Shown here: positions 1 through 12,276 of the stretch, piece by piece | Layout: each line of letters opens with the position of its first letter | How positions within the stretch are numbered: the first letter of the stretch is position 1 | From: an uncultured archaeon | GTDB lineage: Archaea; Asgardarchaeota; Thorarchaeia; Thorarchaeales; Thorarchaeaceae | Direction of reading: 5' to 3' | Length of the DNA: 12,276 bases | Assembly (NCBI GenBank): GCA_964590575.1 | Contig: CAZPWM010000040.1 | Coordinates: 1 to 12,276 of the forward strand | Notes under the pieces: model-generated | Told to the model about the DNA's origin: nothing | What the model saw: only the letters and a program-made list of their open reading frames with translations | The model's database searches: none | Position numbers and translations under genes: made by a program

Positions 1-482
1 ATAATCCCACCCTTTGCAGCGGAATACGCTGGAGAGAATGATCCAACTAGACCAGCAACCGATGAATTGTTAATGATTACACCTTTTCCGTTCTCCTTCA
101 TCTGTTGGATGGCATATTTGCAACAAAGGAAGACAGACTTCAAATTTACATTAACACTCTTATTCCAGTCCTCTTCTGATGTATCTAAAAGCCCCTTAGC
201 AACCTCAACACCAGCATTGTTGAATAGAACATCAACACCACCCATTTCATGTACGACCTCAAAAAGCGCTTTGATGTCCGACTCATAGGACACGTCGGTC
301 TTCACAAAGATCATGCTCCCACCAAACGCTTGAATCTTCTCAGTGATTGACTTGCCACCTTTTTCATCAATATCAGCACCAACAATCCGTGCCCCTTCTT
401 TTGCGAAGAGATTGGCTGATGCCCGTCCAATTCCAGCTGCTACCCCAGTGATGATGACAACCTTACCTTCTAGTCGTTTCAC
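1..482 (-). CDS. Short-chain dehydrogenase/reductase (classical SDR, FabG-like), 3' end runs off the window
   Basis: Not in the ORF track. Manual translation from GTG at 482 gives MKRLEGKVVIITGVAAGIGRASANLFAKEGARIVGADIDEKGG...DVLFNNAG...NNSSVAGLVGSFSPAYSAAKGGI. It has TGxxxGIG, NNAG and the S-YxxxK catalytic triad, and an acidic residue after beta2 suggests NAD(H). The GTG overlaps the upstream TGA (GTGA) and is preceded by an SD-like GGAGGAG. Confidence 0.93.
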   Translation of the reverse strand, partial: MKRLEGKVVIITGVAAGIGRASANLFAKEGARIVGADIDEKGGKSITEKIQAFGGSMIFVKTDVSYESDIKALFEVVHEMGGVDVLFNNAGVEVAKGLLDTSEEDWNKSVNVNLKSVFLCCKYAIQQMKENGKGVIINNSSVAGLVGSFSPAYSAAKGGI

Positions 483-1312
483 ATTTGTTCTCCTCCATGT
501 TTGAGCCAATATTCTGCAATTTCCCTAGGTGTTGCGAACCATACATCACCTTTCGACTGCATGAGTTGAATTAACCTGTCGAGCATCTTGCTTCGAGATG
601 GAACACCCATTATCTGGGGATGCATCGTTAGCATGAAATACAAACCTTCCTCATAGACCGCTTCGAACTCAGCTGACCAAATTTCAAAGACCTTTTCCTG
701 GCTACTGATTCCACTCTGATATGCAAGAGACGGAAACATGTTGAAACCAAAATAGACCCAGTCGTCCAACATCCACCTAATTGGTAACTCTACAATCCTC
801 TTTCCTTCAATCTCAACGATGTAAGGAATATCATCATTCATCATGGTGCTATCATACATCAAACCTTGCTGAGCGAGGAGTGAGTAGGTATTGGGACTCA
901 AATCCGCTGCTGGCGCTCGATATCCAAATGGTTTGTATCCTGCTATTTTCTCAAGCGCGTTTGATCCACGCTCCAGTTCATCCTCTTCCTCTGATAAAGT
1001 CAAGCGGGCTGGGTTCTTGTGATGATACCCATGATGTCCAATCTCGTGGCCAGCATTATGGATATCCTTCACTGAATCTGTAAATCGGTCTGCTACCTCG
1101 CCTGGAACAAAAAAACCAGCTCTGATTTCATTGGTCTTGAGAAGTTTTAAAATTCGAGGTAGAGCTGCTCTTGGAGCATATTCGCCAATCGAGAGAACCA
1201 CTGGGTTATCCCATTCGATATTATTTCGACGTAGGATATTTCTCCAAGAAGTATCTGCATCGAAATCAAAAGTAAGACAAACAACACATCTTGCTCCATC
1301 TTTCCACTCCAT
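479..1312 (-). CDS. CE4/NodB-fold polysaccharide deacetylase family protein (H. pylori PgdA / PuuE-like amidohydrolase)
   Basis: 277 aa with motifs TFDFD, HEIGHHGYHH (metal ligands), GYRAP, YDS, ELP..LDDW and TMHP. No obvious signal peptide. Confidence 0.9.
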   Translation of the reverse strand: MEWKDGARCVVCLTFDFDADTSWRNILRRNNIEWDNPVVLSIGEYAPRAALPRILKLLKTNEIRAGFFVPGEVADRFTDSVKDIHNAGHEIGHHGYHHKNPARLTLSEEEDELERGSNALEKIAGYKPFGYRAPAADLSPNTYSLLAQQGLMYDSTMMNDDIPYIVEIEGKRIVELPIRWMLDDWVYFGFNMFPSLAYQSGISSQEKVFEIWSAEFEAVYEEGLYFMLTMHPQIMGVPSRSKMLDRLIQLMQSKGDVWFATPREIAEYWLKHGGEQM

Positions 1313-1432
1313 TGTTGAAACACCAACAGATTCCTAAACACTCTCTAGGAAAAAGGTTCCTACTTCGAGAAGTAATTCATCTTGCAGTAGAATAAAATGG
1401 AGGTCAGGCAATTATGGACGGGGCTGGTTATT

Positions 1433-2398
1433 ATGTCCTCTACAAGTAAAGTCATGTCAGCTTCTGAGGCCATCAAGAGATTTGTTTCCAAAGGGGATTG
1501 TATCTCTTTTGGAGGTTTCACGGTCAACAGAAATCCGATGGCTTTGGTACACGAAGTACTCAGACAAAAGATTGACAATCTTCATGCAGTAATGCACTCT
1601 GGAAGTCAGGCACTGGACTTGCTGATTGGGGGAGGGCTTATCGATCTTGTAGAGATTGCGTACGGAGCAAATGGGCGGTTTGCCAGTACTTGTGTGAGAT
1701 TTAGAAAAGCAGTCGAGCAAGGATCAATATCTGTTGAAGACTACACGAATTATCAGATTACACTTCGATTCATGGCTGGAGCGATGGGTGTTCCGTATCT
1801 ACCAACGTACTCAGGTCTTGGCTCTGATATCGTGAATAAGTGGGGAATTGATGAGGGAAAAAGAAACTCAAGGAAATCTTTGCCAGAGAAGAAACTGATC
1901 GTTAGTAAGGATCCCTTTACCAATGAAGCGCCTTTGGTTCTCGTACCTGCTGTAAGTCCTGATGTCACACTTCTGCATGTTCATCAAGCCTCAGAGGAAG
2001 GGATAGCCAGGATTAAAGGTCTTACATTTGCTGACATTGAGCAAGCCCGTGCATCTAAACACGTTATCCTTTCATGTGAGGAGCTAGTTCCATCTGAAGA
2101 ACTCCGTCAAGAACCTTGGCATAACTGCTTCCCGCATACCCTTGTGGATGCTATTGTCCATCAACCATTTGGTTCTCATCCTACAGCATGCTATCTTTGC
2201 TATGACTATGATGCTATACACCTCAATGAATACAAGGAACTTGCAATGCATGATGAGCAGTTCTCAGAGTATCTAGAAACCCATGTATTCGGAGTTAGTA
2301 ATTTCAACGAATATCTTGAACTCATTGGAAAAGGTCGACTGGATGATATACGAGCATCACCTGACTTAGGCTATAGACAAAGGAGGAATTCTGCATGA
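1433..2398 (+). CDS. Family I CoA-transferase subunit A (glutaconate CoA-transferase GctA-like)
   Basis: Sequence KVMSASEAIKRFVSKGDCISFGGF..NRNPMALVHE, RFMAGAMGVPYLP..GSD, PDVTLLHV, PFGSHP. The start at ATG 1433 (MSSTSKVMS) fits the family N-terminus better than the ORF-track start at 1397. Confidence 0.88.
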   Translation: MSSTSKVMSASEAIKRFVSKGDCISFGGFTVNRNPMALVHEVLRQKIDNLHAVMHSGSQALDLLIGGGLIDLVEIAYGANGRFASTCVRFRKAVEQGSISVEDYTNYQITLRFMAGAMGVPYLPTYSGLGSDIVNKWGIDEGKRNSRKSLPEKKLIVSKDPFTNEAPLVLVPAVSPDVTLLHVHQASEEGIARIKGLTFADIEQARASKHVILSCEELVPSEELRQEPWHNCFPHTLVDAIVHQPFGSHPTACYLCYDYDAIHLNEYKELAMHDEQFSEYLETHVFGVSNFNEYLELIGKGRLDDIRASPDLGYRQRRNSA

Positions 2399-3165
2399 GT
2401 AATGATTACTCAAGCACTGAAATGATGGCAATAGCCTGTTCTCGGAGAATTAAGAATGACGATATCGTCTTTTGCGGCACTGGACTCCCGATGCTAGCAG
2501 CAGTGACTGCAAAAATGACTCATGCCCCGGATTGCGTCATTTTTTTTGAAACTGGTGCAATGGATCCAGCTCTGCTCGAGATTCCGTTAACCGTTGCAGA
2601 CCCCCGTGTGATGTACAGAGCATCACACAATGGAGGTCTCGTCGATGCATTCTCCTATATGCAGAATCAACGAACAGGTCCCGCGGTTCTGGGAATTCTT
2701 TCAGGGGCACAAATTGACATCTATGGAAATCTAAACAGCACGCTGATTGGTAATTATGATAAACCAGCAGTACGTCTTCCAGGCAGTGGAGGAGCATGTG
2801 ATGTTGCTACTGCCGTTGGACGGACTCTGATATTCATGAGGCATGAAGATAGGAGGTTTGTTGAGCAGCTTGATTATCTGACTAGTCCAGGTTGGCTCTC
2901 TGGTGGTGACTCCAGAAAGCAGGCGGGTCTTCCGGGAGGAGGCCCTGAGGGCGTTATCACATCTCTAGGTGTGCTCTCATTTGATGAAGTGACCAAGAGA
3001 ATGTACCTCGAAAGCTACTATGATTTCACGGCACCAAAAGAAATCCAAGATAATACAGGTTTCACTTTGGATACTTCTCGTTCCAAACCTGAACCTCCAC
3101 CATCACCCCATGAATTGGAAATACTGAGAGAGCATGTTGATCCCATGCGGCTCATCCTTCAGTAA
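2395..3165 (+). CDS. Family I CoA-transferase subunit B (GctB-like)
   Basis: Motifs VFCGTGLP, IFFETG (Glu52, matching the catalytic glutamate position of GctB), GAQIDIYGNLN and LPGSGGA. ATGA overlap with subunit A and an AGGAGG SD at 2381-2386. Confidence 0.9.
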   Translation: MSNDYSSTEMMAIACSRRIKNDDIVFCGTGLPMLAAVTAKMTHAPDCVIFFETGAMDPALLEIPLTVADPRVMYRASHNGGLVDAFSYMQNQRTGPAVLGILSGAQIDIYGNLNSTLIGNYDKPAVRLPGSGGACDVATAVGRTLIFMRHEDRRFVEQLDYLTSPGWLSGGDSRKQAGLPGGGPEGVITSLGVLSFDEVTKRMYLESYYDFTAPKEIQDNTGFTLDTSRSKPEPPPSPHELEILREHVDPMRLILQ

Positions 3166-3242
3166 TCATGTACATGATTTTATTCAGTCGCAAGATTTAT
3201 GTTCACGAGTACACTCTGTAGTATATCTTCTTGAACATGATT
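3164..3242. promoter_or_regulatory. Putative operator array upstream of the RHH regulator
   Basis: Perfect 16-bp palindrome AATCATGTACATGATT (3164-3179), inverted pair ATGTTCA (3199-3205) / TGAACAT (3232-3238), and the half-site ACATGATT repeated at 3235-3242. Confidence 0.45.
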
Positions 3243-3258
3243 CAGGAAGTGCGTGTGC

Positions 3259-4383
3259 ATGGAAGAAAAGATAGAATCGAAGAAGGTAAGTCGTAGCGAT
3301 TCTAGAGGGAAAGGTCCTCGGGTCCATCTCCACACTACGATTTCTGCTTCTACTCGGGATATGTTGAATGAGATCAGTGGTGATTCTGGACGAATCAATG
3401 ATGCTCTTGAGGATGCAGTTCGATACTACATGAAAAGACGAGACCTACCTGACTGTGATACGTGTGAAGATAAAGCAACAATGAAGTTACTATCATCTCT
3501 TGTCACAACTGCAGAGATGGGTCTTACAAGTTCTGAGTTTCTTGAAGCTTTCATGAACCTTGGACATGGCAGTCAATCATCTAATGAGTTCATAGAGAAC
3601 GTGTCAAAGACGGGGATTCAGCACACAAAGCTATTGCGTGGACTTGGCATAATTGAGGGTGACACATGGAAGAATACGTATGAAGCCTTTACTGAACACA
3701 TCAAGCTACTCGAGATAATGGGAATATTGAGGTCAGTAGAATTTTTCCCTGAGAGAAGCACGGTTCTAGCAACTGTGAAGATGTTACGAAATATCCCAGA
3801 AGTTATCATATTATTCCTATTATCAAGTTGGGATGAGGCGGGATACACTGTGGATGTTGAAATCATAGCAGAGAATAAGATCAGTATTCGTTGGTTGAAT
3901 GATAAAGAGTTTAGTATCAAGAAGGAGGGTAGGAATCAACGAATATTCGGTGCGTGGAAAGAGAAGAGAGAAGAACTGTTGATGAAATCTGGCAGGGCAG
4001 GAAATGCAACACTTCCGTCACCACTTCTGGATTGGTTAATCACGCATAAAATTGACGAGCCCATAGGTGAAAAGACACTCATCGAGATACGTAACTCTGG
4101 TCCCCAATACACACCGAATGAACCTAGCGAAGAGTTGCCATTGATAGACCTTGTTCAGAAGGCAACACTCAACATAACATCTACCGGACTTCTAGAGAGA
4201 TGCAGTGTGAAGAAGGATGGCGAAATTGTCAAAGTTCAGCTGGGTGCGAGAAATTCTTCTTTCAAGGATATTGCTATCAAACTCATACTTAACTTACTCG
4301 CCCTAGACAATGTTGAAGAGATATCACGTGAAGAGGGTGAAGCAACAGCAGTCTTGCACTTTGGACGCAGGTTATGGGTGTGA
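3259..4383 (+). CDS. Hypothetical protein; putative transcriptional regulator (N-terminal ribbon-helix-helix, CxxC, two V4R/HNOB-like domains)
   Basis: Long clean ORF (ATG 3259, alternative GTG 3253). The N-terminal RVHLHTTIS-ASTRDMLNEISG-RINDALEDAVRYY has the beta-helix-G-helix pattern of RHH domains and is followed by CDTC. Two similar helix-G-beta-hairpin-helix-beta-hairpin blocks come after that. The domain calls are pattern recognition only. Confidence 0.6.
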   Translation: MEEKIESKKVSRSDSRGKGPRVHLHTTISASTRDMLNEISGDSGRINDALEDAVRYYMKRRDLPDCDTCEDKATMKLLSSLVTTAEMGLTSSEFLEAFMNLGHGSQSSNEFIENVSKTGIQHTKLLRGLGIIEGDTWKNTYEAFTEHIKLLEIMGILRSVEFFPERSTVLATVKMLRNIPEVIILFLLSSWDEAGYTVDVEIIAENKISIRWLNDKEFSIKKEGRNQRIFGAWKEKREELLMKSGRAGNATLPSPLLDWLITHKIDEPIGEKTLIEIRNSGPQYTPNEPSEELPLIDLVQKATLNITSTGLLERCSVKKDGEIVKVQLGARNSSFKDIAIKLILNLLALDNVEEISREEGEATAVLHFGRRLWV

Positions 4384-4405
4384 AACCACAACCTGCTTAG
4401 CATCC

Positions 4406-5785
4406 TCAGTATAGGAAGTCAATTCCAAGATCGGTCACTTCTTTCTTCACTTTATAATAAATGTCAAAGCACTCCTTGGATGGCGTACCAGTTAAGGGAT
4501 CGCAGCATTCTTGGAATCGTTTACCCTTTGGTGGATCCGGAATCATATCCTTGAATTTCGGCACTATCTTCTTCACAATATCATTCGCATCACTTCTCTT
4601 TAGTCCTGCTGATGCATAAGCGACTTCAGCAGCGAACATAGGCTCGATAGGTGTCAGATAGTCGAAGTACTTACCTTTTGCAACACCACCGGTTTCAATG
4701 GATGCTCCAGATGAAACACCAGCGATGAACTCCGCAGCAAACTCATGAAGAACCATTTCAGTACATGGTCCTGCTGCTGTGTAGTTATAGTACAAAGCAG
4801 GCACTGTAGTATTTCTGGTCACAGCTTGAGCATATGTGCTTGCTACCCAGATGAGTTCAGGAGATGAACTTGATGTATACTTGACATGAATTGGGAAGCA
4901 TAGAGTCCAAGAGGCCCCATACGTCAAGATTCCTTGAATGTGAAATGCAGCACTTGTGATAGCTGTCCCTTCAGCTCCACCTGCAAAACCCCCATAAATC
5001 GGTCCGTAGATGCCTGCGATTGGCACATTCAGGGACTGGAGAAGTGCAACTCTATTTAGCAAATCTAGGTCTGTCTTCAATTCTGCAAGTTCTGCCACCA
5101 TGTAACCATCTGTTTTTCGAAGACCAAAATCGGGGTGCAGTCCAGAAGCCAAAGCAATAGCAGATTCAGCTGTCCCTATTCCATTCATAATTGGAAGACC
5201 AGGACGACCAGCTCGTCTCAGTGCTTCTCTTCCAAGAACAACGGTTCTAATGGAGCCTTCGATTTCTAAAGGAGACCTAGCACGTATATTCGCGCCATCC
5301 ACAGAAAGTAAACAAGGCGTTGTAATTGCATTGGCTATTGGGATTCTACGAGCATAGTTCTCAACAAGCCTCATGAAGATACTCTCATCGGAAACAGTGA
5401 CTCCTCCAGCGCCTGCAAAAATCCATGGCTTTTGTGAAGACTCAGGCTTCCTCTGTGTCAATGTTCGCTGTTCCATGCCTTCCCCGAACACAGCATGATC
5501 GAATGAAGTCTTGAGTTCATTCCGAACCTCATTCTCTTCGAAAGCAATAACCCGTTCAGTATCTTTACAATAAACACCAACATCACAAATTAAATCAATG
5601 GCAGCATTGAATATTGAATCAGCTAGTCCGTCATCTGATGGCACAAGGATGTCAGGATCGTAACTGATACCGTGTTCCTTGACCAACTCTCGCACTCTTG
5701 GAGAGAAAACTCGCATGTCATACTCTTTCTCAAGCATGGGTTTTCCATCGAGTGCTCTCTTAGTAATCTCAATAATTGGAATCAA
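4406..5785 (-). CDS. mtmB: Monomethylamine:corrinoid methyltransferase (MtmB) family protein, pyrrolysine-free
   Basis: 459 aa, similar in length to MtmB, with family motifs GVYCKDTERV, AGRPG, ELKTDLD, PIYGGFAGG, AGPCTEM.L.E and PKGKRFQEC. No in-frame TAG. TTG start at 5785, preceded by AAGGAGG inside the end of the upstream gene. Confidence 0.88.
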   Translation of the reverse strand: MIPIIEITKRALDGKPMLEKEYDMRVFSPRVRELVKEHGISYDPDILVPSDDGLADSIFNAAIDLICDVGVYCKDTERVIAFEENEVRNELKTSFDHAVFGEGMEQRTLTQRKPESSQKPWIFAGAGGVTVSDESIFMRLVENYARRIPIANAITTPCLLSVDGANIRARSPLEIEGSIRTVVLGREALRRAGRPGLPIMNGIGTAESAIALASGLHPDFGLRKTDGYMVAELAELKTDLDLLNRVALLQSLNVPIAGIYGPIYGGFAGGAEGTAITSAAFHIQGILTYGASWTLCFPIHVKYTSSSSPELIWVASTYAQAVTRNTTVPALYYNYTAAGPCTEMVLHEFAAEFIAGVSSGASIETGGVAKGKYFDYLTPIEPMFAAEVAYASAGLKRSDANDIVKKIVPKFKDMIPDPPKGKRFQECCDPLTGTPSKECFDIYYKVKKEVTDLGIDFLY

Positions 5786-5787
5786 GA

Positions 5788-6435
5788 TTATTTCCTCCTT
5801 TCTTCAATGAGTTTTGTTGCCACTCTCACACCATCAGGAGCGGTTTCAGCAAAACCATCTGCCCCTATCTCATCAGCCCATTCCTGATTTGAAGGCCCAC
5901 CTCCAACCATGACGATGTATTTGTCTCGGTCACCGGTCTGTTCGAGAAAATCAATCACATCTTTCTGACCTCCAATAGTGGATGTCATAAGCGCTGATAC
6001 TGCAATGATGTCAGCATTGATCTTCTCCGCCTCTTCAACAAATTTTGAGGCGGGTACATCAACACCTAAATCACTCACTTCAAATCCATTTGCTACAAGG
6101 AGTGACTTGAAAATGTTCTTGCCAATTTCATGAACATCTCCACGTACAGTACCAACAACCACTCTCCCTTTCTGAGGGACATCCTCACTCTTCAGCTGTG
6201 GTAGAACCACTTCCAGTCCAGCCATCATTGCCTCACCTGATAGCATTAATTCTGTTAGGAAAATCTCCATATTCTCGAATTGCTCACCAACTTTCTGAGC
6301 TCCCTCAGAGATTCCTTTCTCCAGAATATCTATGGGATCAATCCCAGCATCCAATGCTTTCTTTGTCAAACCAGCAACGGCATCAGTGTCACCTTCGATG
6401 ACTGCTTGTTTTAGAGCTTCAATCTCTTTATTCAT
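5788..6435 (-). CDS. Methyltransferase cognate corrinoid (cobalamin-binding) protein, MtmC/MtbC/MttC-like
   Basis: N-terminal cap domain (LKQAVIEGD...IFLTELMLSGEAM) plus the B12-binding motif GDVHEIGKN...VSALMT...VMVGGG. The true start is probably ATG 6435 (MNKEIE, 215 aa) rather than 6570. Confidence 0.93.
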   Translation of the reverse strand: MNKEIEALKQAVIEGDTDAVAGLTKKALDAGIDPIDILEKGISEGAQKVGEQFENMEIFLTELMLSGEAMMAGLEVVLPQLKSEDVPQKGRVVVGTVRGDVHEIGKNIFKSLLVANGFEVSDLGVDVPASKFVEEAEKINADIIAVSALMTSTIGGQKDVIDFLEQTGDRDKYIVMVGGGPSNQEWADEIGADGFAETAPDGVRVATKLIEERRK

Positions 6436-6448
6436 CTTAGACTTACTT

Positions 6449-6522
6449 CCAATTGTAATTGGGTCAAAGTTGTAGTGAACATCTAGAAAAGAACACCCAA
6501 CATATGTGAACATCTTTGTACA
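6449..6522 (-). promoter_or_regulatory. Putative regulatory sites upstream of the corrinoid-mtmB pair
   Basis: Direct repeat GTGAACATCT at 6475-6484 and 6506-6515, TGTACA at 6517-6522, and inverted repeat CCAATT-GT-AATTGG at 6449-6462, all within a 127-bp intergenic gap. Confidence 0.45.
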
Positions 6523-6562
6523 GAGATAGGGGAATAGATCATTGCGCTTCTTCTTCTGCACC

Positions 6563-7549
6563 TTAATCATGACATGCTACTTGACGACCATCAGGCATCG
6601 TTTTCAGTTCAGGCTCTTCCACACTGCACTTGTCCTTTACAAATGGACACCTTGTATGAAATCTGCATCCTGTTGGGATGTTGACTGGGCTCGGAATCTC
6701 CCCCGTGAGCAGGAGCCTCTCTCTCTTTATACCAGTTTCTGGAACAGGTACTACTGAAACTAGTGCTTTCGTGTAGGGGTGACTTGGGTTGTCAATGATA
6801 TCTTTTGTAACTCCAGTTTCAACGACCCTGCCCAGATAGGCGATGGCAATCCTGTCAGTCATTTGCCTAGCTATAGCTAGATTATGTGTTATCAGTACGA
6901 GCGTGATTCCCTTTTTTTCTCTTAGTTCAAGCAATAACTTCAGAATTTGACCTCTCATTGAAACGTCGAGCATTGAAACCGGTTCATCAGCAATGAGAAG
7001 AATCGGGTCAAGGACAAGTGCAGCCGCCACGGCCACACGTTGTCGCTGCCCCCCACTCAGTTCATGTGGTATCCTACCTGCAAATTCCTCAGCGGGAAGA
7101 AGCCCTACATCTTCAAGTGCAGCTAACACACGTTTTTCAATTTCACCAGCTGATGCATAGACATTATGAATCTTAAGAGGTTCTGCGACAATCTCGCCTA
7201 TGGTCATGTTATTGCTCAATGATCCATATGGGTCTTGGAAGATCATCTGAATCCTTCTACGATACTCCTTGAATTCGCCCTCATTCATTGCAGAGATCTT
7301 GTCCCCCTCAAACCAGATCTCTCCCTCAGTTAAGGTTTCCAAGCGCATGATCAATCTCGCAATTGTGGTCTTGCCGCATCCGCTCTCTCCAGCAATGCCA
7401 AAAATCTCGCCTTGCTTGATTTCCAAGTCCACTCCATCAACTGCACGGATGTACGAGTCGGACTTCTCCGAGAGGAGACTTGAGAGGAACCCAGCTCTGA
7501 CTGTAAACCACTTCTTGAGATTACGGGTTTCGAGAATCACATCTGACAT
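6563..7549 (-). CDS. Oligopeptide/dipeptide ABC transporter ATP-binding protein (OppF/DppF-like)
   Basis: Walker A GESGCGKTT, Q-loop FQDP, signature LSGGQ, Walker B LIADEP, H-loop ITH, HPYT, and a C-terminal C-x5-C-x6-C...C motif. TAATG overlap with the upstream ATPase. Confidence 0.95.
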   Translation of the reverse strand: MSDVILETRNLKKWFTVRAGFLSSLLSEKSDSYIRAVDGVDLEIKQGEIFGIAGESGCGKTTIARLIMRLETLTEGEIWFEGDKISAMNEGEFKEYRRRIQMIFQDPYGSLSNNMTIGEIVAEPLKIHNVYASAGEIEKRVLAALEDVGLLPAEEFAGRIPHELSGGQRQRVAVAAALVLDPILLIADEPVSMLDVSMRGQILKLLLELREKKGITLVLITHNLAIARQMTDRIAIAYLGRVVETGVTKDIIDNPSHPYTKALVSVVPVPETGIKRERLLLTGEIPSPVNIPTGCRFHTRCPFVKDKCSVEEPELKTMPDGRQVACHD

Positions 7550-8538
7550 TAGATTTCATGCCTCCTGAAACACGCCACTCTGTGGCCTTCTTCATCCACA
7601 AGCGGTGGTTCCTCTGTTCTGCACCTATCAATCGCATAGTCGCATCTTGGATGAAAGTTGCATCCTATCGGGGGATCAATAAGGTCTGGAGGATTTCCTG
7701 GGATGTAATCAATTTCCTTGTCGGCGAGAATACTTGGAAATGATGCAATGAGTTTCTTTGTGTATGGATGGCCGGGTTCATTGAAGAGGATTTGAACAGA
7801 CGCCTCCTCGACAATTTTCCCGGCGTACATTATGATGACCCTATCACAGGTTTCTGCAAGCACCGATAAGTCATGAGTGATGATTAGTAGTGAGAGACTT
7901 GTCTTTTTCCTGAGCTGTTTGAAGAGATCGAGAATCTGAGCCTGGATCATTACATCCAATGCAGTAGTAGGCTCATCAGCTATTACCAGAGGGGGATGTA
8001 ACACAAGAGAGAGTGCAATCATGAGGCGTTGCTTCATTCCTCCACTTAGTTCGTGTGGATATGCTGTTGCCCTTGACCTCTCTATCCCGACAGATTCTAT
8101 TAATTCAAGTGCAATCTCTTTCGCTTCATTCCTCGATATATTTTCATGGATCAAAATTGTATCAACCATCTGGTCAATCACACGATGAACTGGATTCAGC
8201 GAGTTCATTGCGCCTTGAAAGACCATGGATACTCCTTTCCAACGAAAGGCCTCAATGTCCTTCTTCCTCAAAGTTAGGATATCGGTATTGCCAACAATGG
8301 CCTGCCCACCTTCAACGACTCCCTCCTTCGGTAGAATCTGTAGCAGAGCCATGGCAGTAGTGGTCTTTCCACAGCCACTCTCGCCGCTCAGTCCTACAAA
8401 CTCACCACAACCCACTGTGAAGTCAATGTTATCTACTGCTTTGACTATTCCCTGGGATATGTGGTAGTAGATTTTTAGACCTGATACTATGAGCACTGGT
8501 TGCCCTGCAGGGATTTCTGTTTGGGATGTTTCATTCAT
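7549..8538 (-). CDS. Oligopeptide/dipeptide ABC transporter ATP-binding protein (OppD/DppD-like)
   Basis: Motifs GESGCGKTT, FQGAMNSLNP, LSGGMKQR, IADEPTTALD, ITHD, HPYT and GCNFHPRC..C..C. Confidence 0.95.
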   Translation of the reverse strand: MNETSQTEIPAGQPVLIVSGLKIYYHISQGIVKAVDNIDFTVGCGEFVGLSGESGCGKTTTAMALLQILPKEGVVEGGQAIVGNTDILTLRKKDIEAFRWKGVSMVFQGAMNSLNPVHRVIDQMVDTILIHENISRNEAKEIALELIESVGIERSRATAYPHELSGGMKQRLMIALSLVLHPPLVIADEPTTALDVMIQAQILDLFKQLRKKTSLSLLIITHDLSVLAETCDRVIIMYAGKIVEEASVQILFNEPGHPYTKKLIASFPSILADKEIDYIPGNPPDLIDPPIGCNFHPRCDYAIDRCRTEEPPLVDEEGHRVACFRRHEI

Positions 8539-8546
8539 CTATGTTG

Positions 8547-11270
8547 CTACCTCCTGCGAAGTTTTGGATTGACAATCTCATCCATCGCATATCCCACCAT
8601 TGACACACCTAGGAGCAAAAGTATAACCATGATTCCAGGCGGAAAGAGAAGCCACCATAAATTATTGGACATTGCACCTGCATTAAATGCCAAGTAAAGC
8701 ATTGTACCCCAGCTGATCATAGCGGGGTCTCCGAGTCCAAAGAAGTCCAGGACTACCTCTGATAGAATCGCCCATGCTGTGACAAGAATTGTATTGGCAA
8801 CAACAAGGGGAGCTACAGCAGCCAACACATGTTTGCTCATGATATAGACATTGCTGCCCCCCACTGCTCTAACTCTCTCTATATAGGCCCGTTCCTTTAT
8901 TGTTAATACCTGTCCTCGGACAATACGTGCCGTCGAGGACCATGAGAACAGACCGATCACAAGTATGAGGGTTATAATTGAAGGACCTAGTACTGCAGCT
9001 ATGATGATCATCAATAGAAGGCTAGGGATTACGAAGAAAATGTCTGTAAATCTCATTAAGAAGGAGTCAATAATCCCGCCATAATATCCTGCCACTAGAC
9101 CGACCAACGTGCCTATAATCACGGACATTCCTGTTGCTACAATGCCCACAAGAAGTGTGATTCTCACAGCAATAATCATTTGACTAAATACGTCTCTTCC
9201 CAATTGATCAGTACCCATTAGATGGGTACCCGGAAAATCTAGAGGGAGTGCCCGCGGTGCTTGAAGGATGCCTTGGACGAATAGACCGATACCGACTACA
9301 CCTACAAGAGCAACAACCAATCTTGGAAGATGAGTTTTCAGGTCCTGAATGAAGAAGTTTCGCTTCGCACTCAGAAGACTCCTTAAGATGATAATTCCAG
9401 CAATCACTCCAATTGCTACTGAGAATACCAAAGTTGTCGTATTCTCAAGAGATAATGATTGAACTCCAAAAATACCTGCAATGAAAAGAATAAGTCCTCC
9501 GCCTAAAAGGGTGACGAAAAATCTAGGAATGAGAGGTCTTTTTCTCCGATCCAATATCACCCAGACCTCTCCTGCAGCAATAGCAGATGCTGCGCCTATA
9601 GAAACCATTAGCAGTTGCATTTCTGGCAGCATATCAGGAGGCCGGTACAAGAGTCCTGTAAAGAATGCTTCAGGGTCATACGGAGCCACGATATCACCGA
9701 AAATGGTCATTCCTGCGAACATTGCAACAATCGAAGTTCCCATAATCCCCATTCGTGTTTTGATGAAACGACCGAAGGTATTTCCCAGGCCTTTCCTCTT
9801 CCCGAGAAGGATTCCAAATACCGCTACCAGCAATGCGACTTGTGTTAGGGATGGATGCGCAATTGATGAGAGTGTAAGTTGCAGTGTTGAGTACTCCGCA
9901 TCTGGTAGAAGTGGCGGAGGAAATAATCCCAAACCAGCAAATGCCGCGCCCCAATGCAACGCCCAATTAGGACTGAGAATACCTGTTGCAGCAATAATGC
10001 TCACTGCGATCAAATTGACGACCAATACAACTCCAGAAAATCGAACCAAGAGTTGGGACCGTTTGTTCCTCCATGCATAAATCAAGTTTTCTGGCTTCAA
10101 AGTACCAAATCTGCTTACTATGAAATGCAATACACCCTTTCTCTTTACAATTAGTAAGAGAATGATAAGAGGAATGACCGTGGTTATGCCTATTACTGCC
10201 CATGTAGAAAGAAGTGCGACTATAGCAATCACTGCTAGAGCATAATGAGAGAATGGTCTTGGCGGTTTCTCATCACCAATAGTGAAATCTGCTCCAACTC
10301 TTATTCTAGGGTCAAGATAGAAGTAGATAAAGTCTGCAAGAAGATTGGCAATCACCACAACCACAGTAATCATGAAAAAGGCTGCTTGGAGTAGTGGGTA
10401 GTCCCGGTAATAGACTCCTTCCCAAATTAAGTTACCAATACCAGGATAGGAGAATACAACCTCTGTCTGGAGTGCTCCAGCTACCGAAAATCCTAGCTGC
10501 AACGCGATGACAGTTGTTATTGGTATCATCGCATTTGGCATGGCTTCTTTATTCAGTTGTTCTTTCTCAGTTCGTCCCTTGGCTTTGGCTGTGACCATAT
10601 AATCTTCACTTAAGACGTCTAGCAGAGCGTTTCTCGTGATTAATGCAAATGAACCCAAGATTGCGATAATCAGCACAGTCCATGGAAGCATCAAATGGGA
10701 TATCATATCAGCAGCAAGACCAAAAGGATTACCCGTGAAGTCCATTCCTGGAGTGGTCAATCCCGGTGTTCCTGGAAACCAACCGAGCCCAAATGCGAAG
10801 AACATGATGAAGAACATGGCTAACCAAAATGTGGGGATAGAGTATGTAATCAGCGAAAATAGGAGTCCTAGAAAATCTGCTGGTCGACCTCGACGCCAGG
10901 CGGAGTTCTTGCCTATCCATATTCCGATGACAATCGCAGCGAGAGATGCAGGAACAATCAAAATCAGAGTATTGCCAAGGTGTTCCATGATAATGGGTCC
11001 TACTTCCTCTCTAAAGTGAAAAGACATCCCAAGTTTCAGAGTGAGGAAATTTCCAAGAAAAAGAATGAATTGTTCCCAAAGTGGTTTATCAAGCCCAAAC
11101 TGCTCAATCAATTGGTCCTGTGCAACTTCTGTTAGATTTGGATTTCGAGCAAGGAATGTCATTGGATCGCCCGGAAGAATGTGGAAGATCACGAAATCGA
11201 TTGCAAGTACTATGAAGATTGTGACAATTGCTTGAACTATTCGTTTGATTAGGACGTCTCGTAATGCCAT
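8547..11270 (-). CDS. Fused OppB-OppC (DppB-DppC) ABC permease with extra transmembrane insertions
   Basis: The N-half has LPGDP, GLDKPL, EDYMVTAKAKG (EAA-like loop) and YLDPRIR. The C-half has APYDP, HLMGTDQLGRD, MRFTD, AYIERVRAVG and NPKLR. It is a single uninterrupted ORF. ATG 11270 is preferred over GTG 11291. Confidence 0.9.
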   Translation of the reverse strand: MALRDVLIKRIVQAIVTIFIVLAIDFVIFHILPGDPMTFLARNPNLTEVAQDQLIEQFGLDKPLWEQFILFLGNFLTLKLGMSFHFREEVGPIIMEHLGNTLILIVPASLAAIVIGIWIGKNSAWRRGRPADFLGLLFSLITYSIPTFWLAMFFIMFFAFGLGWFPGTPGLTTPGMDFTGNPFGLAADMISHLMLPWTVLIIAILGSFALITRNALLDVLSEDYMVTAKAKGRTEKEQLNKEAMPNAMIPITTVIALQLGFSVAGALQTEVVFSYPGIGNLIWEGVYYRDYPLLQAAFFMITVVVVIANLLADFIYFYLDPRIRVGADFTIGDEKPPRPFSHYALAVIAIVALLSTWAVIGITTVIPLIILLLIVKRKGVLHFIVSRFGTLKPENLIYAWRNKRSQLLVRFSGVVLVVNLIAVSIIAATGILSPNWALHWGAAFAGLGLFPPPLLPDAEYSTLQLTLSSIAHPSLTQVALLVAVFGILLGKRKGLGNTFGRFIKTRMGIMGTSIVAMFAGMTIFGDIVAPYDPEAFFTGLLYRPPDMLPEMQLLMVSIGAASAIAAGEVWVILDRRKRPLIPRFFVTLLGGGLILFIAGIFGVQSLSLENTTTLVFSVAIGVIAGIIILRSLLSAKRNFFIQDLKTHLPRLVVALVGVVGIGLFVQGILQAPRALPLDFPGTHLMGTDQLGRDVFSQMIIAVRITLLVGIVATGMSVIIGTLVGLVAGYYGGIIDSFLMRFTDIFFVIPSLLLMIIIAAVLGPSIITLILVIGLFSWSSTARIVRGQVLTIKERAYIERVRAVGGSNVYIMSKHVLAAVAPLVVANTILVTAWAILSEVVLDFFGLGDPAMISWGTMLYLAFNAGAMSNNLWWLLFPPGIMVILLLLGVSMVGYAMDEIVNPKLRRR

Positions 11271-11301
11271 ACTTACCCACTCTGATTTCACTTTGGATTA
11301 T

Positions 11302-11340
11302 AAAAAAAGGGAAATGAACAGACAGGAGTTCTGTCTGCTC
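11302..11340 (-). terminator. Hairpin plus oligo-U between the binding-protein and permease genes (partial terminator or RNA stabiliser)
   Basis: The minus strand reads GAGCAGACAG-AACTC-CTGTCTGTTC (10-bp stem, one G-U pair), followed by ATTTCCC-TTTTTTT. Confidence 0.6.
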
Positions 11341-11366
11341 AATCTCTAATCCAATTCTGGCTTATG

Positions 11367-12276
11367 CTATTTTTTCTTGACGAAATACACCACAACAATC
11401 AGTACCACTACACCTATTCCTCCAACAGCTACGAGTAGTAGTGGATCAATTAATGGGGGTGGTGGTAGTGTTGTAGTCGTTGTTGTTGTAGTCGCAACTG
11501 GCACGTCGACCTCTAGCCATGAATCGATGTTCCACATTGACAGGATGCCGCTTTGCCAGTCTGTGTGAGTGAATGTCCAGGCATCATTTCTGTAAAGTTC
11601 GATGTCATTGTACTCAACAAGAACAATGATACTAGAATCATCGTACATTATCTGCTGGAACTCATCACAAAGAGCTGCCCTAGTTACATCATTGGTGGTC
11701 AGTTGTTGTTCCTTGTATATCTCATCAACCCTTGTGATGTTCACACCATTGGGGTTGATCCAGCTGTCACTGGTCATGTATTGCATCATGCTATTTGGAT
11801 CTGCAATCTGGCTGTAGAAGGTCAGAGCTATGTCAAAGTCCCAAACCTCTGTAGCGGTCTGAGCAATGAAGGTTGTTGTTTCAAGAGGAGTTGTTGAGAT
11901 ATCAAATCCTGCAGCCTCAAGATAAGCGCTAACTAGAGACACAATTGTGAAGTCTGTTGGAACACCAGTCACATACTTGATGTTGAAGGTTAGTGTCTCA
12001 ACAGTTCCAGCTACGTTTTTCTCATAGACACCTGCCAGATTCTCAGCCCATCCTGCAGCTTCAAGAGTTGCCCTAGCTGCAGCTGCCCCGGGGGTATAGG
12101 TCACAAGAGCGTCATTATACCACTTGAGCTCAGAATGGATTAGTGAGTCCGCTGCATTTGCATGTCCGAGATATGCAACCTCAGCAATTTGCGCCTTGTC
12201 AATGGCCTGATTCATTGCCTTTCTCACTTCTGGTTGACGAAGTGCATTAGTCTTATGTGTACGAGAAGCATATTCT
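11367..12276 (-). CDS. ABC transporter substrate-binding protein, family 5 (OppA/DppA-like); 5' part lies outside the window
   Basis: The frame is open to the window edge (EYASRTHKTNALRQPEVRKAMNQAIDK...). It contains ARATLEAAGW and RAALCDEFQQIMYDD, and ends with a Thr-rich linker, PPPP, a hydrophobic helix and KKK (archaeal-type C-terminal membrane anchor). Confidence 0.9.
   Translation of the reverse strand, partial: EYASRTHKTNALRQPEVRKAMNQAIDKAQIAEVAYLGHANAADSLIHSELKWYNDALVTYTPGAAAARATLEAAGWAENLAGVYEKNVAGTVETLTFNIKYVTGVPTDFTIVSLVSAYLEAAGFDISTTPLETTTFIAQTATEVWDFDIALTFYSQIADPNSMMQYMTSDSWINPNGVNITRVDEIYKEQQLTTNDVTRAALCDEFQQIMYDDSSIIVLVEYNDIELYRNDAWTFTHTDWQSGILSMWNIDSWLEVDVPVATTTTTTTTLPPPPLIDPLLLVAVGGIGVVVLIVVVYFVKKK
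11456..11493 (-). repeat. Low-complexity poly-Thr/Pro coding stretch (TTTTTTTTLPPPP linker)
   Basis: Run of ACN and CCN codons in the C-terminus of the binding protein. Confidence 0.8.

What the first reader, a model, noticed from the sequence alone, without database searches (positions are those of the whole stretch)
1..12276. Candidate undescribed uptake, demethylation and catabolism system for a methylated organic compound
Seen: a peptide-type ABC importer, a corrinoid protein and the non-Pyl MtmB are co-oriented. A putative ligand-sensing regulator, a GctAB-like CoA-transferase, a CE4 amidohydrolase and an SDR are immediately adjacent, with gaps of about 130 bp or less. Known: methanogen mtmBC loci come with the MtmP amine permease, not an Opp system. 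Inference: a larger substrate (N-methylated amino acid or peptide, methylated cyclic amide, or carnitine-like compound) is imported, deacylated or ring-opened, demethylated onto the corrinoid, and its carbon skeleton is oxidised and CoA-activated. The order of steps and the substrate are speculative.
Basis: inference. Interest (0 to 1): 0.75.

Follow-up and report, generated by a model that had tools for sequence, protein, structure and literature searches.

The report
Asgard importer-linked cobalamin methyltransferase regulon
A salt-marsh Thorarchaeon links a peptide-type importer to a pyrrolysine-free cobalamin methyltransferase under one dedicated regulator, which probably lets it harvest methyl groups from an unidentified imported N-methylated compound.

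Summary

- **Conserved core.** The core is SBP, a fused OppBC, OppD, OppF, a corrinoid protein and a non-Pyl MtmB homologue (Met200 at the pyrrolysine position), plus a convergent 376-aa regulator candidate. All 15 orthologous Asgard loci keep the corrinoid gene and the regulator beside the MtmB homologue. Twelve of the 15 have the Opp genes directly upstream.
- **Shared promoter cassette.** TGWWCA-N3-5-TGWWCA-N1-6-TGTTG occurs four times in the 3.4-Mb genome, all on this contig. The copies sit upstream of corrinoid-MtmB, the SBP operon, an M28 peptidase gene and an aminotransferase-M28-CN-hydrolase-M20 operon. The true pathway partners therefore lie mostly to the right of the window.
- **Left-hand genes.** CE4 and SDR are facultative neighbours (3 of 15 loci, plus one Bathyarchaeal locus). 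The GctAB-like CoA-transferase is a lineage-specific insertion (window and L006).
- **Open points.** The substrate is unknown. The methyl group probably goes through MtrH to H4MPT and the Wood-Ljungdahl pathway.
- **Closest known.** MtqBC (tetramethylammonium/choline, 2026).

This scan found the same island earlier in another genome (e1-5537715). I class it as a new variant of a known kind.

The parts
3..509 (-). SDR oxidoreductase, N-terminal 169 aa (gene cut by the contig end). A facultative neighbour, not shown to be in the regulon.
   Evidence: PF00106, 141 bits. An SDR lies next to CE4 in L004, L010 and L015.
479..1312 (-). CE4-family (polysaccharide-deacetylase/PuuE-like) amidohydrolase, cytoplasmic. 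A facultative neighbour.
   Evidence: PF01522, 76 bits. TIGR03212 (PuuE), 98 bits against a cut-off of 424. PDB 3rxz at E 2.5e-51. Orthologues beside the regulator in 3 of 15 loci, and a 43%-identical copy beside MtmB paralogues in L058.
1397..3165 (+). GctA-like (1397-2398) and GctB-like (2395-3165) family-I CoA-transferase subunits. Probably a lineage-specific insertion into the CE4|regulator spacer.
   Evidence: PF01144. 1POI_A at E 1.1e-65. Found only here and in L006 among the 15 loci. The spacer halves match the undivided L004 spacer.
3168..3238 (+). Promoter/operator region of the regulator gene: a TGTACA palindrome plus the inverted pair ATGTTCA-N25-TGAACAT.
   Evidence: The inverted pair is conserved upstream of the regulator in the 13 other loci read. 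That exact design occurs twice in the genome, here and inside a 2440-aa ORF on C28.
3253..4383 (+). 376-aa regulator candidate. It has an RHH-like N-terminus (judged by eye), a V4R/H-NOX/Bet3-like middle domain and a ferredoxin-like C-terminal domain.
   Evidence: No Pfam or NCBIfam family. AF2 pLDDT 73. H-NOX/TRAPP/BcsD matches at Z 6-7.8. Atlas AF_0136_C clusters at 0.93. Adjacent to the MtmB homologue in 15 of 15 loci and present in the same 16 genomes of its family.
4406..5785 (-). Non-pyrrolysine MtmB-family methyltransferase (MT1), 459 aa, with Met200 at the Pyl position.
   Evidence: PF05369, 326 bits. No in-frame stop. Pyl of 1L2Q and the TAG of L047, L049 and L051 align with M200. It is the only family member in the genome.
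5788..6435 (-). Cognate corrinoid protein. Likely 215 aa from the ATG at 6435; the ORF is open up to 6570.
   Evidence: PF02310 and PF02607. MtgC 219 bits, TIGR02370 213 bits. DVHEIG at residue 145. Orthologous ORFs are 215-216 aa.
6476..6522 (-). Promoter/operator cassette upstream of corrinoid-MtmB: hexamer-N4-hexamer-N4-TGTTGG, a TATA-like CTTTTCTAG, then a third hexamer.
   Evidence: One of only 4 matches to the pattern in the 3.4-Mb genome, all on this contig. Present upstream of the corrinoid gene in all 15 Asgard loci and in none of the 43 other loci.
6563..8538 (-). OppF-like (7549..6563) and OppD-like (8538..7549) ABC ATPases.
   Evidence: ABC_tran plus oligo_HPY. Walker A and LSGG motifs.
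8547..11291 (-). Fused OppB-OppC permease, 914 aa, with extra hydrophobic segments between and inside the two halves.
   Evidence: BPD_transp_1 twice, BPD_transp_1_N and OppC_N. Opp2B 243 bits, Opp4C 221 bits. Full-length matches in 8 Asgard loci and partial ones at contig ends in 3 more. Hydropathy.
11292..11366 (-). Hairpin followed by a U-tract between the SBP and permease genes. Probably an attenuator or mRNA-stability element.
   Evidence: -24.9 kcal/mol, z -5.36, 0 of 200 shuffles fold as well.
11367..12276 (-). C-terminal part of the surface-anchored family-5 solute-binding protein. The gene continues beyond a 10-N gap to contig position 13309.
   Evidence: PF00496. N-run. Signal peptide, Thr-rich linker and C-terminal TM anchor. 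The intact 655-aa orthologue in L003 has no close solved relative (best E 4e-16; NikA model 110 bits against a cut-off of 393).

Best explanation
This is the left half of an accessory gene island of Thorarchaeia (Asgard archaea). The island imports an organic, amide- or peptide-like compound that carries N-methyl group(s) and strips the methyl group by a cobalamin-dependent route.

Proposed chain of events (only the gene content, conservation and shared cis-element are shown; the steps themselves are inferred):
1. The 376-aa protein binds the TGTWCA hexamers that flank the TATA-like box of each island promoter. It probably acts as a repressor and releases them when it senses the substrate or a product.
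2. A surface-tethered family-5 binding protein, the fused OppBC permease and OppD/OppF import the compound.
3. Cytoplasmic amidohydrolases of the same regulon free the methylated amine. These are the M28, M20 ArgE/DapE-type and CN-hydrolase enzymes, plus CE4 in some genomes.
4. The pyrrolysine-free MtmB homologue transfers the methyl group to Co(I) of the adjacent corrinoid protein.
5. An MtrH-type methyltransferase passes the methyl group to H4MPT, and a RACo/RamA-type activase keeps the corrinoid active. Both are encoded elsewhere in this genome and adjacent in L014 and in the Bathyarchaeal loci L020-L022.
6. The methyl group enters the Wood-Ljungdahl pathway.
7. The demethylated primary amine is transaminated by the class-III aminotransferase of the regulon.

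The substrate is unknown.
For: **Gene identities:**

**Non-Pyl status:** Pyl aligns with Met200. PylS is not found above its cut-off (22 bits against 178).

**Conservation in the 15 Asgard loci with 74-95% identical MtmB homologues:**
- The corrinoid gene and the regulator are adjacent in 15 of 15.
- Opp ATPase genes lie directly upstream of the corrinoid gene in 12 of 15.
- The Opp operon is convergent and close by in L014.
- L015 has the start of an SBP gene at the locus edge.
- L011 has only an OppF relic.

**Co-occurrence:** the MtmB orthologue is in 16 of 85 other genomes of the taxonomic family. The regulator is in the same 16 plus 2 more.

**Shared cis-element:**
- The pattern has 4 matches in 3.4 Mb, all on C40, each upstream of an island transcription unit.
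- The relaxed pattern has 23 matches in 852 kb of fetched loci. All are in the 15 Asgard loci, and each of the 15 has one upstream of the corrinoid gene.
- Of 11 genome-wide clusters of three hexamers within 50 nt, 4 are on this 25-kb contig.

**Independent linkage elsewhere:** SBP_bac_5/Opp genes lie near 38-41% identical MtmB homologues in two Desulfobacterales and two Actinomycetota loci. In L039 the SBP gene is directly upstream. These rows fall in a different clade of the quick tree.

**Downstream parts:**
- L014 reads corrinoid-MtmB-MtrH-RACo-regulator.
- The own genome has MtrH x3, RACo x2 and CdhC, and no MCR alpha was found.

**Weak expression hint:** contigs of one sediment RNA library lie on the MtmB homologue, OppD, the OppBC 5' end plus spacer (0 differences) and the SBP gene.

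**Analogy:** a non-Pyl MtmB homologue, MtqB, methylates its corrinoid partner from tetramethylammonium and choline (PMC13044021; abstract, Results part 1 and Discussion read).
Against: - No substrate is identified. The SBP has no close characterised relative.
- Corrinoid-MtmB has its own promoter cassette and is separable from the importer. It stands apart from Opp in L014 and L015.
- G335 (85% complete) has the regulator, Opp, BPL_N-like and aminotransferase genes but no MtmB homologue at E 1e-20.
- Across the loci the SBP diverges to 45-49% identity while the MtmB homologue stays at 86-95%. This fits one fixed ligand poorly.
- The RHH assignment rests on reading the sequence only. There is no Pfam match even at E 10, and the fold matches of the sensor domain are middling (Z 6-7.8).
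- MT2 and activase genes are not on this contig and carry no cassette.
- The cassette pattern was derived from the sites it then finds. Only its absence elsewhere is informative.
- The RNA evidence is assembled contigs from one library, which may contain DNA.
Confidence: 0.55

Rival explanations
1. There are two modules under one regulator but no shared substrate. The Opp importer and the peptidases form an ordinary peptide-scavenging regulon. The corrinoid-MtmB pair demethylates a small free quaternary or secondary amine (such as choline or tetramethylammonium, as MtqB does) that enters by another route.
For: - Corrinoid-MtmB has its own cassette promoter.
- The island exists without an MtmB homologue in G335.
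- L011 and L015 lack adjacent Opp genes.
- The SBP is far more divergent than the MtmB homologue across loci.
- An extracellular anchored BPL_N-like protein and M28/M20 peptidases fit detrital protein use.
- MtqB uses small amines (PMC13044021).
Against: - The cassette is the same at all units and occurs nowhere else in the genome.
- Opp is directly upstream in 12 of 15 loci.
- SBP_bac_5/Opp linkage recurs in 4 bacterial loci, with the SBP gene immediately upstream of the MtmB homologue in L039.
- A paralogous Thorarchaeial MtmB-corrinoid pair (L016) also sits beside an ABC importer (Liv-type) and amidohydrolases.
Confidence: 0.25
2. CE4 opens or deacylates the imported compound, the MtmB homologue demethylates it, and SDR plus the GctAB-like CoA-transferase oxidise and activate the skeleton.
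For: - CE4+SDR lie beside the regulator in L004, L010 and L015. In L015 they are co-directional with it.
- In L004 and L010 the divergent spacer carries the operator hexamers.
- The Bathyarchaeal locus L058 combines 3 MtmB paralogues, a corrinoid protein, RACo, a 43%-identical CE4, M20 and SDR.
Against: - CE4+SDR are absent from 11 of the 15 loci (the L006 contig ends before that flank).
- The CoA-transferase is seen only in the window and in L006.
- The CE4|CoA-transferase spacer has no cassette and no hexamer.
- The closest relative, L003 (95% identical MtmB homologue), has unrelated genes at that flank.
Confidence: 0.12
3. The ABC system is a Nik/Cnt-type importer of nickel, cobalt or a metallophore that supplies cobalt for the corrinoid. 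It is not a substrate importer.
For: The best NCBIfam models for the SBP and the OppB half are nickel-type: NikA at 110 bits and Opp2B at 243 bits, both under their cut-offs.
Against: - The scores are far below the cut-offs, and peptide models score similarly.
- The same cassette drives peptidase, amidase and aminotransferase genes.
- The island without an MtmB homologue keeps the importer.
Confidence: 0.05

Closest known systems
MtqB/MtqC of Methanococcoides methylutens Q3c (tetramethylammonium/choline:corrinoid methyltransferase; PMC13044021, 2026)
   Same: A pyrrolysine-free MtmB-family MT1 encoded next to its own corrinoid protein, with the corrinoid gene first. It is the only non-Pyl MtmB homologue with a demonstrated function.
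   Different: - The host here is a non-methanogen: no MCR alpha was found.
- MT2 is probably MtrH/H4MPT rather than MtbA/CoM.
- The pair sits in a regulon with an Opp-type importer, amidohydrolases and an aminotransferase.
- The paper (passages searched) mentions no transporter.
- The paper places MtqB near Pyl-MtmBs and leaves the remaining non-Pyl MtmBs without a function.
Pyl-containing monomethylamine methyltransferase MtmB with MtmC (Methanosarcina barkeri, PDB 1L2Q/1NTH)
   Same: Same Pfam family over the full length (PF05369, 326 bits). Alignable over residues 9-457 (E 1.4e-64). An adjacent corrinoid protein with DxHxxG.
   Different: - Met200 (motif PIMN) replaces pyrrolysine.
- Identity to the bacterial Pyl-MtmBs L047, L049 and L051 is 33-34%.
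- No PylS was found.
- That methanogen loci carry the MtmP permease is recalled, not tested here.
Non-Pyl MttB-superfamily systems (MtgB glycine betaine, MtcB carnitine, MtpB proline betaine, MtyB gamma-butyrobetaine; recalled, apart from MtgB in the listings and abstracts)
   Same: The same logic: loss of Pyl goes with a switch to larger N-methylated substrates, and a corrinoid protein, MT2 and activase feed C1 metabolism.
   Different: A different MT1 fold family (PF06253 against PF05369). The genome has one such MttB homologue elsewhere, on C74, not in this island.
Opp/Dpp/Nik (PepT-family) ABC importers
   Same: A family-5 SBP, two BPD_transp_1 permease domains with OppC_N, and two ATPases with the oligo_HPY tail.
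   Different: - The permease halves are fused into one 914-aa protein with extra hydrophobic segments.
- The SBP is only remotely related to any characterised member.
- The operon is followed immediately by, and co-regulated with, a corrinoid methyltransferase pair.

Membership tests
MtmB family (PF05369) | Full-length match to the family model above its gathering score | tested here: met
   325.8 bits against a cut-off of 25; profile positions 3-450 of 450.
Monomethylamine methyltransferase MtmB in the strict sense | In-frame UAG-encoded pyrrolysine at the active site (Pyl202 of M. barkeri MtmB) | tested here: not met
   No in-frame stop. The Pyl position aligns with Met200. PylS is not found above its cut-off.
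Monomethylamine methyltransferase MtmB in the strict sense | Adjacent cognate corrinoid protein with a DxHxxG B12-binding domain | tested here: met
   PF02310 and PF02607. DVHEIG at residue 145. A 2-nt gap to the MtmB homologue.
MtqB/MtqC (tetramethylammonium/choline system) | Non-Pyl MtmB homologue encoded downstream of its corrinoid protein | tested here: met
   The gene order is as described in PMC13044021 (Results part 1).
MtqB/MtqC (tetramethylammonium/choline system) | Orthology or clade membership with the characterised MtqB | not tested
The paper's figure 6 legend places MtqB near Pyl-MtmBs. In my quick tree the window's clade is separated from the three Pyl-MtmB rows by a 96* branch.
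MtqB/MtqC (tetramethylammonium/choline system) | Methyl transfer from tetramethylammonium or choline | not testable with these tools
   Needs an enzyme assay.
Opp/Dpp/Nik (PepT) ABC importer | Family-5 SBP, two permease domains and two ATPases with the oligo_HPY C-terminal domain, in one operon | tested here: met
   The permease domains are fused.
Opp/Dpp/Nik (PepT) ABC importer | Peptide as the transported ligand | not testable with these tools
   The SBP is only remotely similar to solved or curated members (best PDB E 4e-16; NikA 110 bits against a cut-off of 393).
Ribbon-helix-helix transcription factors | Match to an RHH family model, or a confident RHH dimer fold | tested here: inconclusive
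   No Pfam match at E up to 10 for the N-terminal 51 aa of 5 orthologues or at E up to 1 for the whole protein. AF2 gives two helices after a strand-like stretch, at pLDDT under 50. A CopG-like atlas cluster scores only 0.86.
Glutaconate CoA-transferase (GctAB) type, family I | Two-subunit PF01144 enzyme closest to GctA/GctB | tested here: met
   PF01144 in both subunits. 1POI_A at E 1.1e-65 over residues 17-327. Catalytic residues were not checked.
CE4 / PuuE-like amidohydrolase | Polysacc_deac_1 (NodB homology) domain | tested here: met
   PF01522, 76 bits against a cut-off of 23.1. The PuuE equivalog is not reached (98 against 424).

The most novel reading that the evidence does not exclude
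Some Asgard archaea practise a peptide-linked methylotrophy. They import N-methylated peptides or N-acyl amino compounds, for example fragments of post-translationally methylated proteins or methylated osmolyte conjugates. They hydrolyse these compounds and pass the N-methyl groups through a pyrrolysine-free MtmB homologue, a corrinoid protein and MtrH into the Wood-Ljungdahl pathway. A new family of RHH-plus-sensor repressors controls all of this. [quoted passage not shown]
Probability: 0.2. Interest if true: 0.85.

Novelty: new variant of a known kind. Interest (0 to 1): 0.6.

Why it matters
- **An open family.** Non-Pyl MtmB homologues are numerous, but only one (MtqB, 2026) has a known function. 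Here the genomic context supplies an importer, a sensor-regulator candidate, hydrolases and a cis-element. That gives several independent experimental handles on the substrate: SBP ligand screening, EMSA with effector screening, and methyltransferase reconstitution.
- **Asgard physiology.** If the reading holds, non-methanogenic Asgard archaea in salt-marsh and other sediments take methyl groups from imported organic nitrogen compounds into an H4MPT-dependent Wood-Ljungdahl pathway. That would affect models of methylated-amine turnover, and so of competition with methylotrophic methanogens.
- **A small archaeal regulon.** The regulon is also a clean natural example of an archaeal promoter and operator design tied to one candidate transcription factor.

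Tried and rejected
1. **RHH dimer test.** Complex prediction on two copies of regulator residues 18-82 scored 0.38 against a mark of 0.42. There is no verdict, so it is not used either way.
2. **Pfam on the regulator.** Nothing on the whole protein or on the N-terminus.
3. **Foldseek on the regulator model.** The top hits are designed proteins, so no family can be assigned.
4. **Paralogues of the regulator in the own genome.** None found.
5. **Second copy of ATGTTCA-N15-35-TGAACAT (C28:24072).** It lies inside a 2440-aa ORF and is taken as chance.
6. **Simple 8-mer and hexamer counts.** They are only mildly enriched on the contig. Only the composite cassette is specific.
7. **Rfam.** No family in the window.
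8. **Literature.**
   - Searches 'MtmB'+'non-pyrrolysine', 'Thorarchaeota'+'monomethylamine', 'MtmB'+'Asgard' and 'MtmB'+'oligopeptide'+'archaea' gave no description of an Opp-linked MtmB homologue in the listings or in the passages read.
   - Searches for 'methyltransferase-specific regulator' and 'AF_0136' led nowhere.
   - PMC5864231 is not held.
   - Supplements were not seen, and the MtmB tree in PMC13044021 may place this clade.
9. **RNA run X19.** No contigs were laid on positions 1-4500. This is not evidence of silence.
10. **The M24 (PepQ-like) gene at contig 21823-23031.** It has no hexamer in its upstream spacer and is only 23-28% identical to the M24 genes beside MtmB homologues in L016 and L037. 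It is not counted in the regulon.
11. **Careful ML tree.** The search did not finish. The quick tree was used.

Full report
**Where the window lies.** The window is G000:C40:1-12276, the left part of a 25,218-bp contig. The assembly has 194 contigs, 3.40 Mb, 43% G+C, 91% completeness and 2.5% contamination. The window ends at a run of 10 N inside the solute-binding-protein gene. The closest homologues of its proteins come from Thorarchaeota and other Asgard MAGs. The DNA is held mainly by salt-marsh and other sediment metagenomes.

**Check of the observation.**
- A truncated SDR, 509..3(-).
- A CE4/PuuE-like amidohydrolase, 1312..479(-).
- Two family-I CoA-transferase subunits, 1397-2398 and 2395-3165(+). 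The first matches glutaconate CoA-transferase subunit A (1POI) at E 1e-65 over its full length.
- A 376-aa ORF without any family, 3253-4383(+).
- A 459-aa MtmB-family protein with no in-frame stop, 5785..4406(-).
- A corrinoid protein with DxHxxG.
- OppF- and OppD-like ATPases.
- A permease.
- The C-terminal part of a family-5 binding protein.

Four corrections apply.
- OppB and OppC are fused into one 914-aa protein.
- The SBP gene continues beyond the N gap to contig position 13309.
- The first 45 codons of the corrinoid ORF are really a 127-nt spacer. The likely start is the ATG at 6435, which gives the 215 aa seen in orthologues.
- The contig continues to the right with a surface-anchored BPL_N-like protein, an M28 peptidase gene, a class-III aminotransferase, a second M28, a CN-hydrolase, an ArgE/DapE-type M20 deacylase (292 bits against the TIGR01910 cut-off of 217.6), a PepQ-like M24 and a polytopic membrane protein.

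**The methyltransferase.**
- The pyrrolysine of M. barkeri MtmB (1L2Q) aligns with Met200 in the invariant motif PIMN.
- So does the TAG codon of three bacterial Pyl-MtmB genes, L047, L049 and L051. Thirty-nine of 59 aligned homologues have Met there.
- It is the only MtmB-family gene in the genome.
- No PylS is found above its cut-off and no MCR alpha is found (the genome is 91% complete).
- The genome encodes three MtrH homologues, two RACo/RamA-type activases, five URO-D-family matches, one non-Pyl MttB homologue and CdhC.

A complete route from a methylated corrinoid to H4MPT and acetyl-CoA is therefore plausible, but it is encoded elsewhere in the genome.

**Conservation.** A scan of species-representative genomes returned 58 loci with MtmB homologues. 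Fifteen are Asgard loci with 74-95% identity: L003-L015, L019 and L034. From tblastn of all contig proteins against them:
- The corrinoid gene and the 376-aa ORF are adjacent in 15 of 15.
- OppF/OppD lie directly upstream of the corrinoid gene in 12 of 15.
- OppBC is seen in 11 loci (partial at contig ends in three) and the SBP in 8 (plus a partial one in L015), wherever the contigs reach.
- L014 has the Opp operon convergent, 3.9 kb away.
- L015 has only the start of an SBP gene at the locus edge.
- L011 keeps only an OppF relic.

The flank beyond the regulator varies.
- CE4+SDR in L004, L010 and L015.
- CoA-transferase B in L006 (the contig ends there).
- M20 deacylase in L005, L007, L009, L013, L019 and L034.
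- Unrelated genes in L003, L011 and L012, and the Opp operon itself in L014.
- The L008 contig ends inside the regulator gene.

In L014 the order is corrinoid-MtmB-MtrH-RACo-regulator, the most complete version of the methyl-transfer module.

Within the taxonomic family the MtmB orthologue is patchy. It is in 16 of 85 other genomes: 5 of 27 in the same genus, and 9 of 17, 1 of 3 and 1 of 7 in three other genera. The regulator is in the same 16 genomes, in each case next to the MtmB homologue, plus G335 and a 60-aa fragment in G312.

**Linkage outside the Asgard clade.**
- The Bathyarchaeial relatives (50-62% identity) keep the corrinoid gene but have no Opp genes within the loci.
- Instead they often have saccharopine-dehydrogenase-like, MtrH, RACo, AFOR, aldehyde dehydrogenase, class-III aminotransferase or MttB genes nearby.
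- Four bacterial loci with 38-41% identical homologues do carry SBP_bac_5/Opp genes. These are L037 and L039 (Desulfobacterales; in L039 the SBP gene is directly upstream) and L041 and L042 (Actinomycetota).
- In the quick ML tree the 17 Thorarchaeial rows form one clade (100*) nested among Bathyarchaeial rows. The bacterial Opp-linked rows sit in a separate 10-row clade (95*). The careful search did not finish.
- A paralogous Thorarchaeial pair (L016, 67% identity) lies beside a Liv-type ABC importer, an M24 creatinase/prolidase-type enzyme, a CN-hydrolase and a luciferase-like oxidoreductase.
- L058 (Bathyarchaeota) combines three MtmB paralogues, a corrinoid protein and RACo with a CE4 (43% identical to the window's), an M20 and an SDR.

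The recurring theme is an ABC importer plus amidohydrolases plus a non-Pyl MtmB/corrinoid pair.

**The regulon.**
- The 127-nt OppF|corrinoid spacer holds a composite element. It consists of hexamer-N4-hexamer-N4-TGTTGG, a TATA-like box and a third hexamer, where the hexamers are TGTTCA, TGTACA or TGAACA.
- The pattern TGWWCA-N3-5-TGWWCA-N1-6-TGTTG has four matches in the whole 3.4-Mb assembly. All four are on C40 and all point at a downstream transcription unit:
  - 6522..6498(-), before corrinoid-MtmB.
  - 13387..13363(-), before the SBP operon.
  - 14487-14511(+), before the M28 gene.
  - 16386-16410(+), before the aminotransferase-M28-CN-hydrolase-M20 operon.
- The last two copies share a nearly identical block of about 50 nt.
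- With the last base relaxed, the pattern has 23 matches in the 852 kb of fetched loci. All 23 are within the 15 Asgard loci, and none is in the other 43 loci. Each of the 15 has one upstream of its corrinoid gene, and the others precede SBP, M28 or aminotransferase genes.
- Clusters of three hexamers within 50 nt number 11 in the genome, four of them on this 25-kb contig.
- The regulator's own promoter (3168-3238) carries a TGTACA palindrome and ATGTTCA-N25-TGAACAT. The inverted pair is conserved in the 13 other loci read.

The pattern was derived from these sites, so only its absence from the rest of the genome and from the non-Asgard loci counts as evidence. The CE4|CoA-transferase spacer has no such element. 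Comparison with L004 and L010 suggests that the CoA-transferase genes were inserted into what was a divergent CE4|regulator spacer. The CE4-proximal half now lies at 1313-1396 and the operator half at 3166-3252.

**The 376-aa protein.**
- It has no Pfam or NCBIfam family and no paralogue in the genome.
- Its invariant N-terminal stretch, a strand-like RVHLHTT segment followed by two helices, looks like a ribbon-helix-helix. This is my reading only.
- AlphaFold2 with 15 orthologues gives pLDDT 73. Confidence is low in the N-terminus and good from residue about 110 on.
- VIA-align finds H-NOX, TRAPP Bet3 and BcsD for residues about 85-223 (Z 6-7.8). It finds ferredoxin-like or ACT-like folds for residues 294-376 (Z up to 9, mostly designed proteins). 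Z values at this level can mean only a common arrangement.
- The ESM Atlas puts the protein next to archaeal 'AF_0136 family C-terminal domain' clusters (0.93), with a CopG-like cluster at 0.86. These are leads only.
- With the hexamers spaced one helical turn apart and flanking the TATA-like box, a ligand-released repressor is the most economical reading. It is inferred, not shown.

**Other points.**
- The SBP has a signal peptide, a Thr-rich linker and a C-terminal anchor. The BPL_N-like protein is built the same way, so both face outward.
- The intact orthologous SBP (L003, 655 aa) has no close characterised relative: best PDB E 4e-16, NikA model 110 bits against a cut-off of 393. Ligand class therefore cannot be read from sequence.
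- Contigs of one sediment RNA library lie on the MtmB homologue (three pieces, 97.6-99.3% alike), on OppD, on the OppBC 5' end plus spacer (226 nt, no difference) and on the SBP gene. This is a weak hint of expression, since such libraries can hold DNA.
- A DNA contig from another study bridges CE4 and the CoA-transferase gene (record 24). That arrangement is therefore not an assembly artefact of this MAG.

**Evidence against a single substrate chain.**
- Corrinoid-MtmB has its own promoter.
- G335 (85% complete) has the regulator, Opp, BPL_N-like and cassette-bearing aminotransferase genes but no MtmB homologue, either locally or in the genome at E 1e-20.
- Between loci the SBP drops to 45-49% identity and OppBC to about 52%, while the MtmB homologue stays at 86-95%.

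The methyltransferase pair is thus a module that can be added to or lost from an import, hydrolysis and transamination regulon. This keeps the two-module rival alive (0.25).

**Comparison with what is known.**
- The only non-Pyl MtmB homologue with a shown function is MtqB of Methanococcoides methylutens Q3c, which methylates MtqC from tetramethylammonium and choline. The remaining non-Pyl MtmBs are called of unknown function there (PMC13044021; abstract, Results part 1, Discussion and figure 6 legend read).
- That paper mentions no transporter.
- Papers on Asgard and Thorarchaeial metabolism that I could read in passages describe MtrAH, the Wood-Ljungdahl pathway and, for Sifarchaeia, Pyl-dependent methylamine use. 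They do not describe this island (PMC9723677 and PMC9635834).
- Four full-text searches found no description of an Opp-linked MtmB homologue. Supplements were closed.
- The same island was reported earlier within this scan on another Thorarchaeial genome.

**Verdict.**
- The window holds a conserved, dedicated regulon module of importer, corrinoid protein, non-Pyl MtmB homologue and regulator.
- CE4 and SDR are recurrent but optional neighbours, and the CoA-transferase is a local insertion.
- The system is a new variant of the corrinoid-dependent methyltransferase systems, with an unknown substrate and an unusual coupling to a peptide-type importer and amidohydrolases.
- Interest is 0.6.

Noticed in passing
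window 8547-11291 (-): OppB and OppC are fused into one 914-aa protein. About 350 residues of additional hydrophobic segments lie between the OppB domain (to residue 331) and the OppC transport domain (from residue 689), including four segments between OppC_N and the OppC core. The fusion gives full-length matches in 8 Asgard loci of both transporter subtypes (about 80% and about 52% identity) and partial ones at contig ends in 3 more. The bacterial loci have separate genes.
   Followed up: partly
window 11292-11366 (-): A strong hairpin (-24.9 kcal/mol, z -5.4) followed by a U-run lies between the SBP and permease genes. It is probably an attenuator or mRNA-stability element that sets the SBP:permease ratio.
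   Followed up: partly
contig C40:14460-16370 (L001:3461-5371): The 260-aa ORF and the following M28 ORF look like one M28 peptidase gene split in this assembly. The 87-nt 'spacer' reads as M28 coding sequence, and L003 has a single ORF there. This may be a frameshift, a pseudogene or an assembly error. The annotated N-termini of this ORF and of the aminotransferase ORF are really promoter cassettes.
   Followed up: partly
L062 (G335:C12:17000-36500): A related Thorarchaeial genome has the regulator, the Opp operon, the BPL_N-like gene and a cassette-bearing aminotransferase gene, but no corrinoid-MtmB pair. No MtmB homologue was found in the 85%-complete genome at E 1e-20.
   Followed up: yes
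L016:8486-17492: The same Thorarchaeon that carries an Opp-type island (L008) has a second, 67%-identical MtmB/corrinoid pair. It lies beside a luciferase-like oxidoreductase, an M24 creatinase/prolidase-type enzyme, a Liv-type ABC importer and a CN-hydrolase. In L037 (Desulfobacterales) an M24 gene lies directly upstream of corrinoid-MtmB.
   Followed up: partly
L014:9262-19939: A complete Thorarchaeial chromosome has AFOR-corrinoid-MtmB-MtrH-RACo-regulator on one strand and the Opp operon convergent. This is the only locus with MT1, the corrinoid protein, MT2, the activase, the regulator and the importer together.
   Followed up: partly
G000:C93:4467-5210: One of the two RACo/RamA-type activase matches in this genome is reported with one in-frame TAG, although no PylS is found above its cut-off. 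I did not examine it.
   Followed up: no
L003-L034, all 15 Asgard loci: The island is modular. Regulator subtypes (about 80% against about 45% identity to the window's) go with the flank type (CE4/SDR/CoA-transferase against M20). Transporter subtypes (SBP about 75-89% against 45-49%) assort independently. The MtmB homologue stays at 86-95% in 13 of the 15 loci (78% in L014, 74% in L015).
   Followed up: partly
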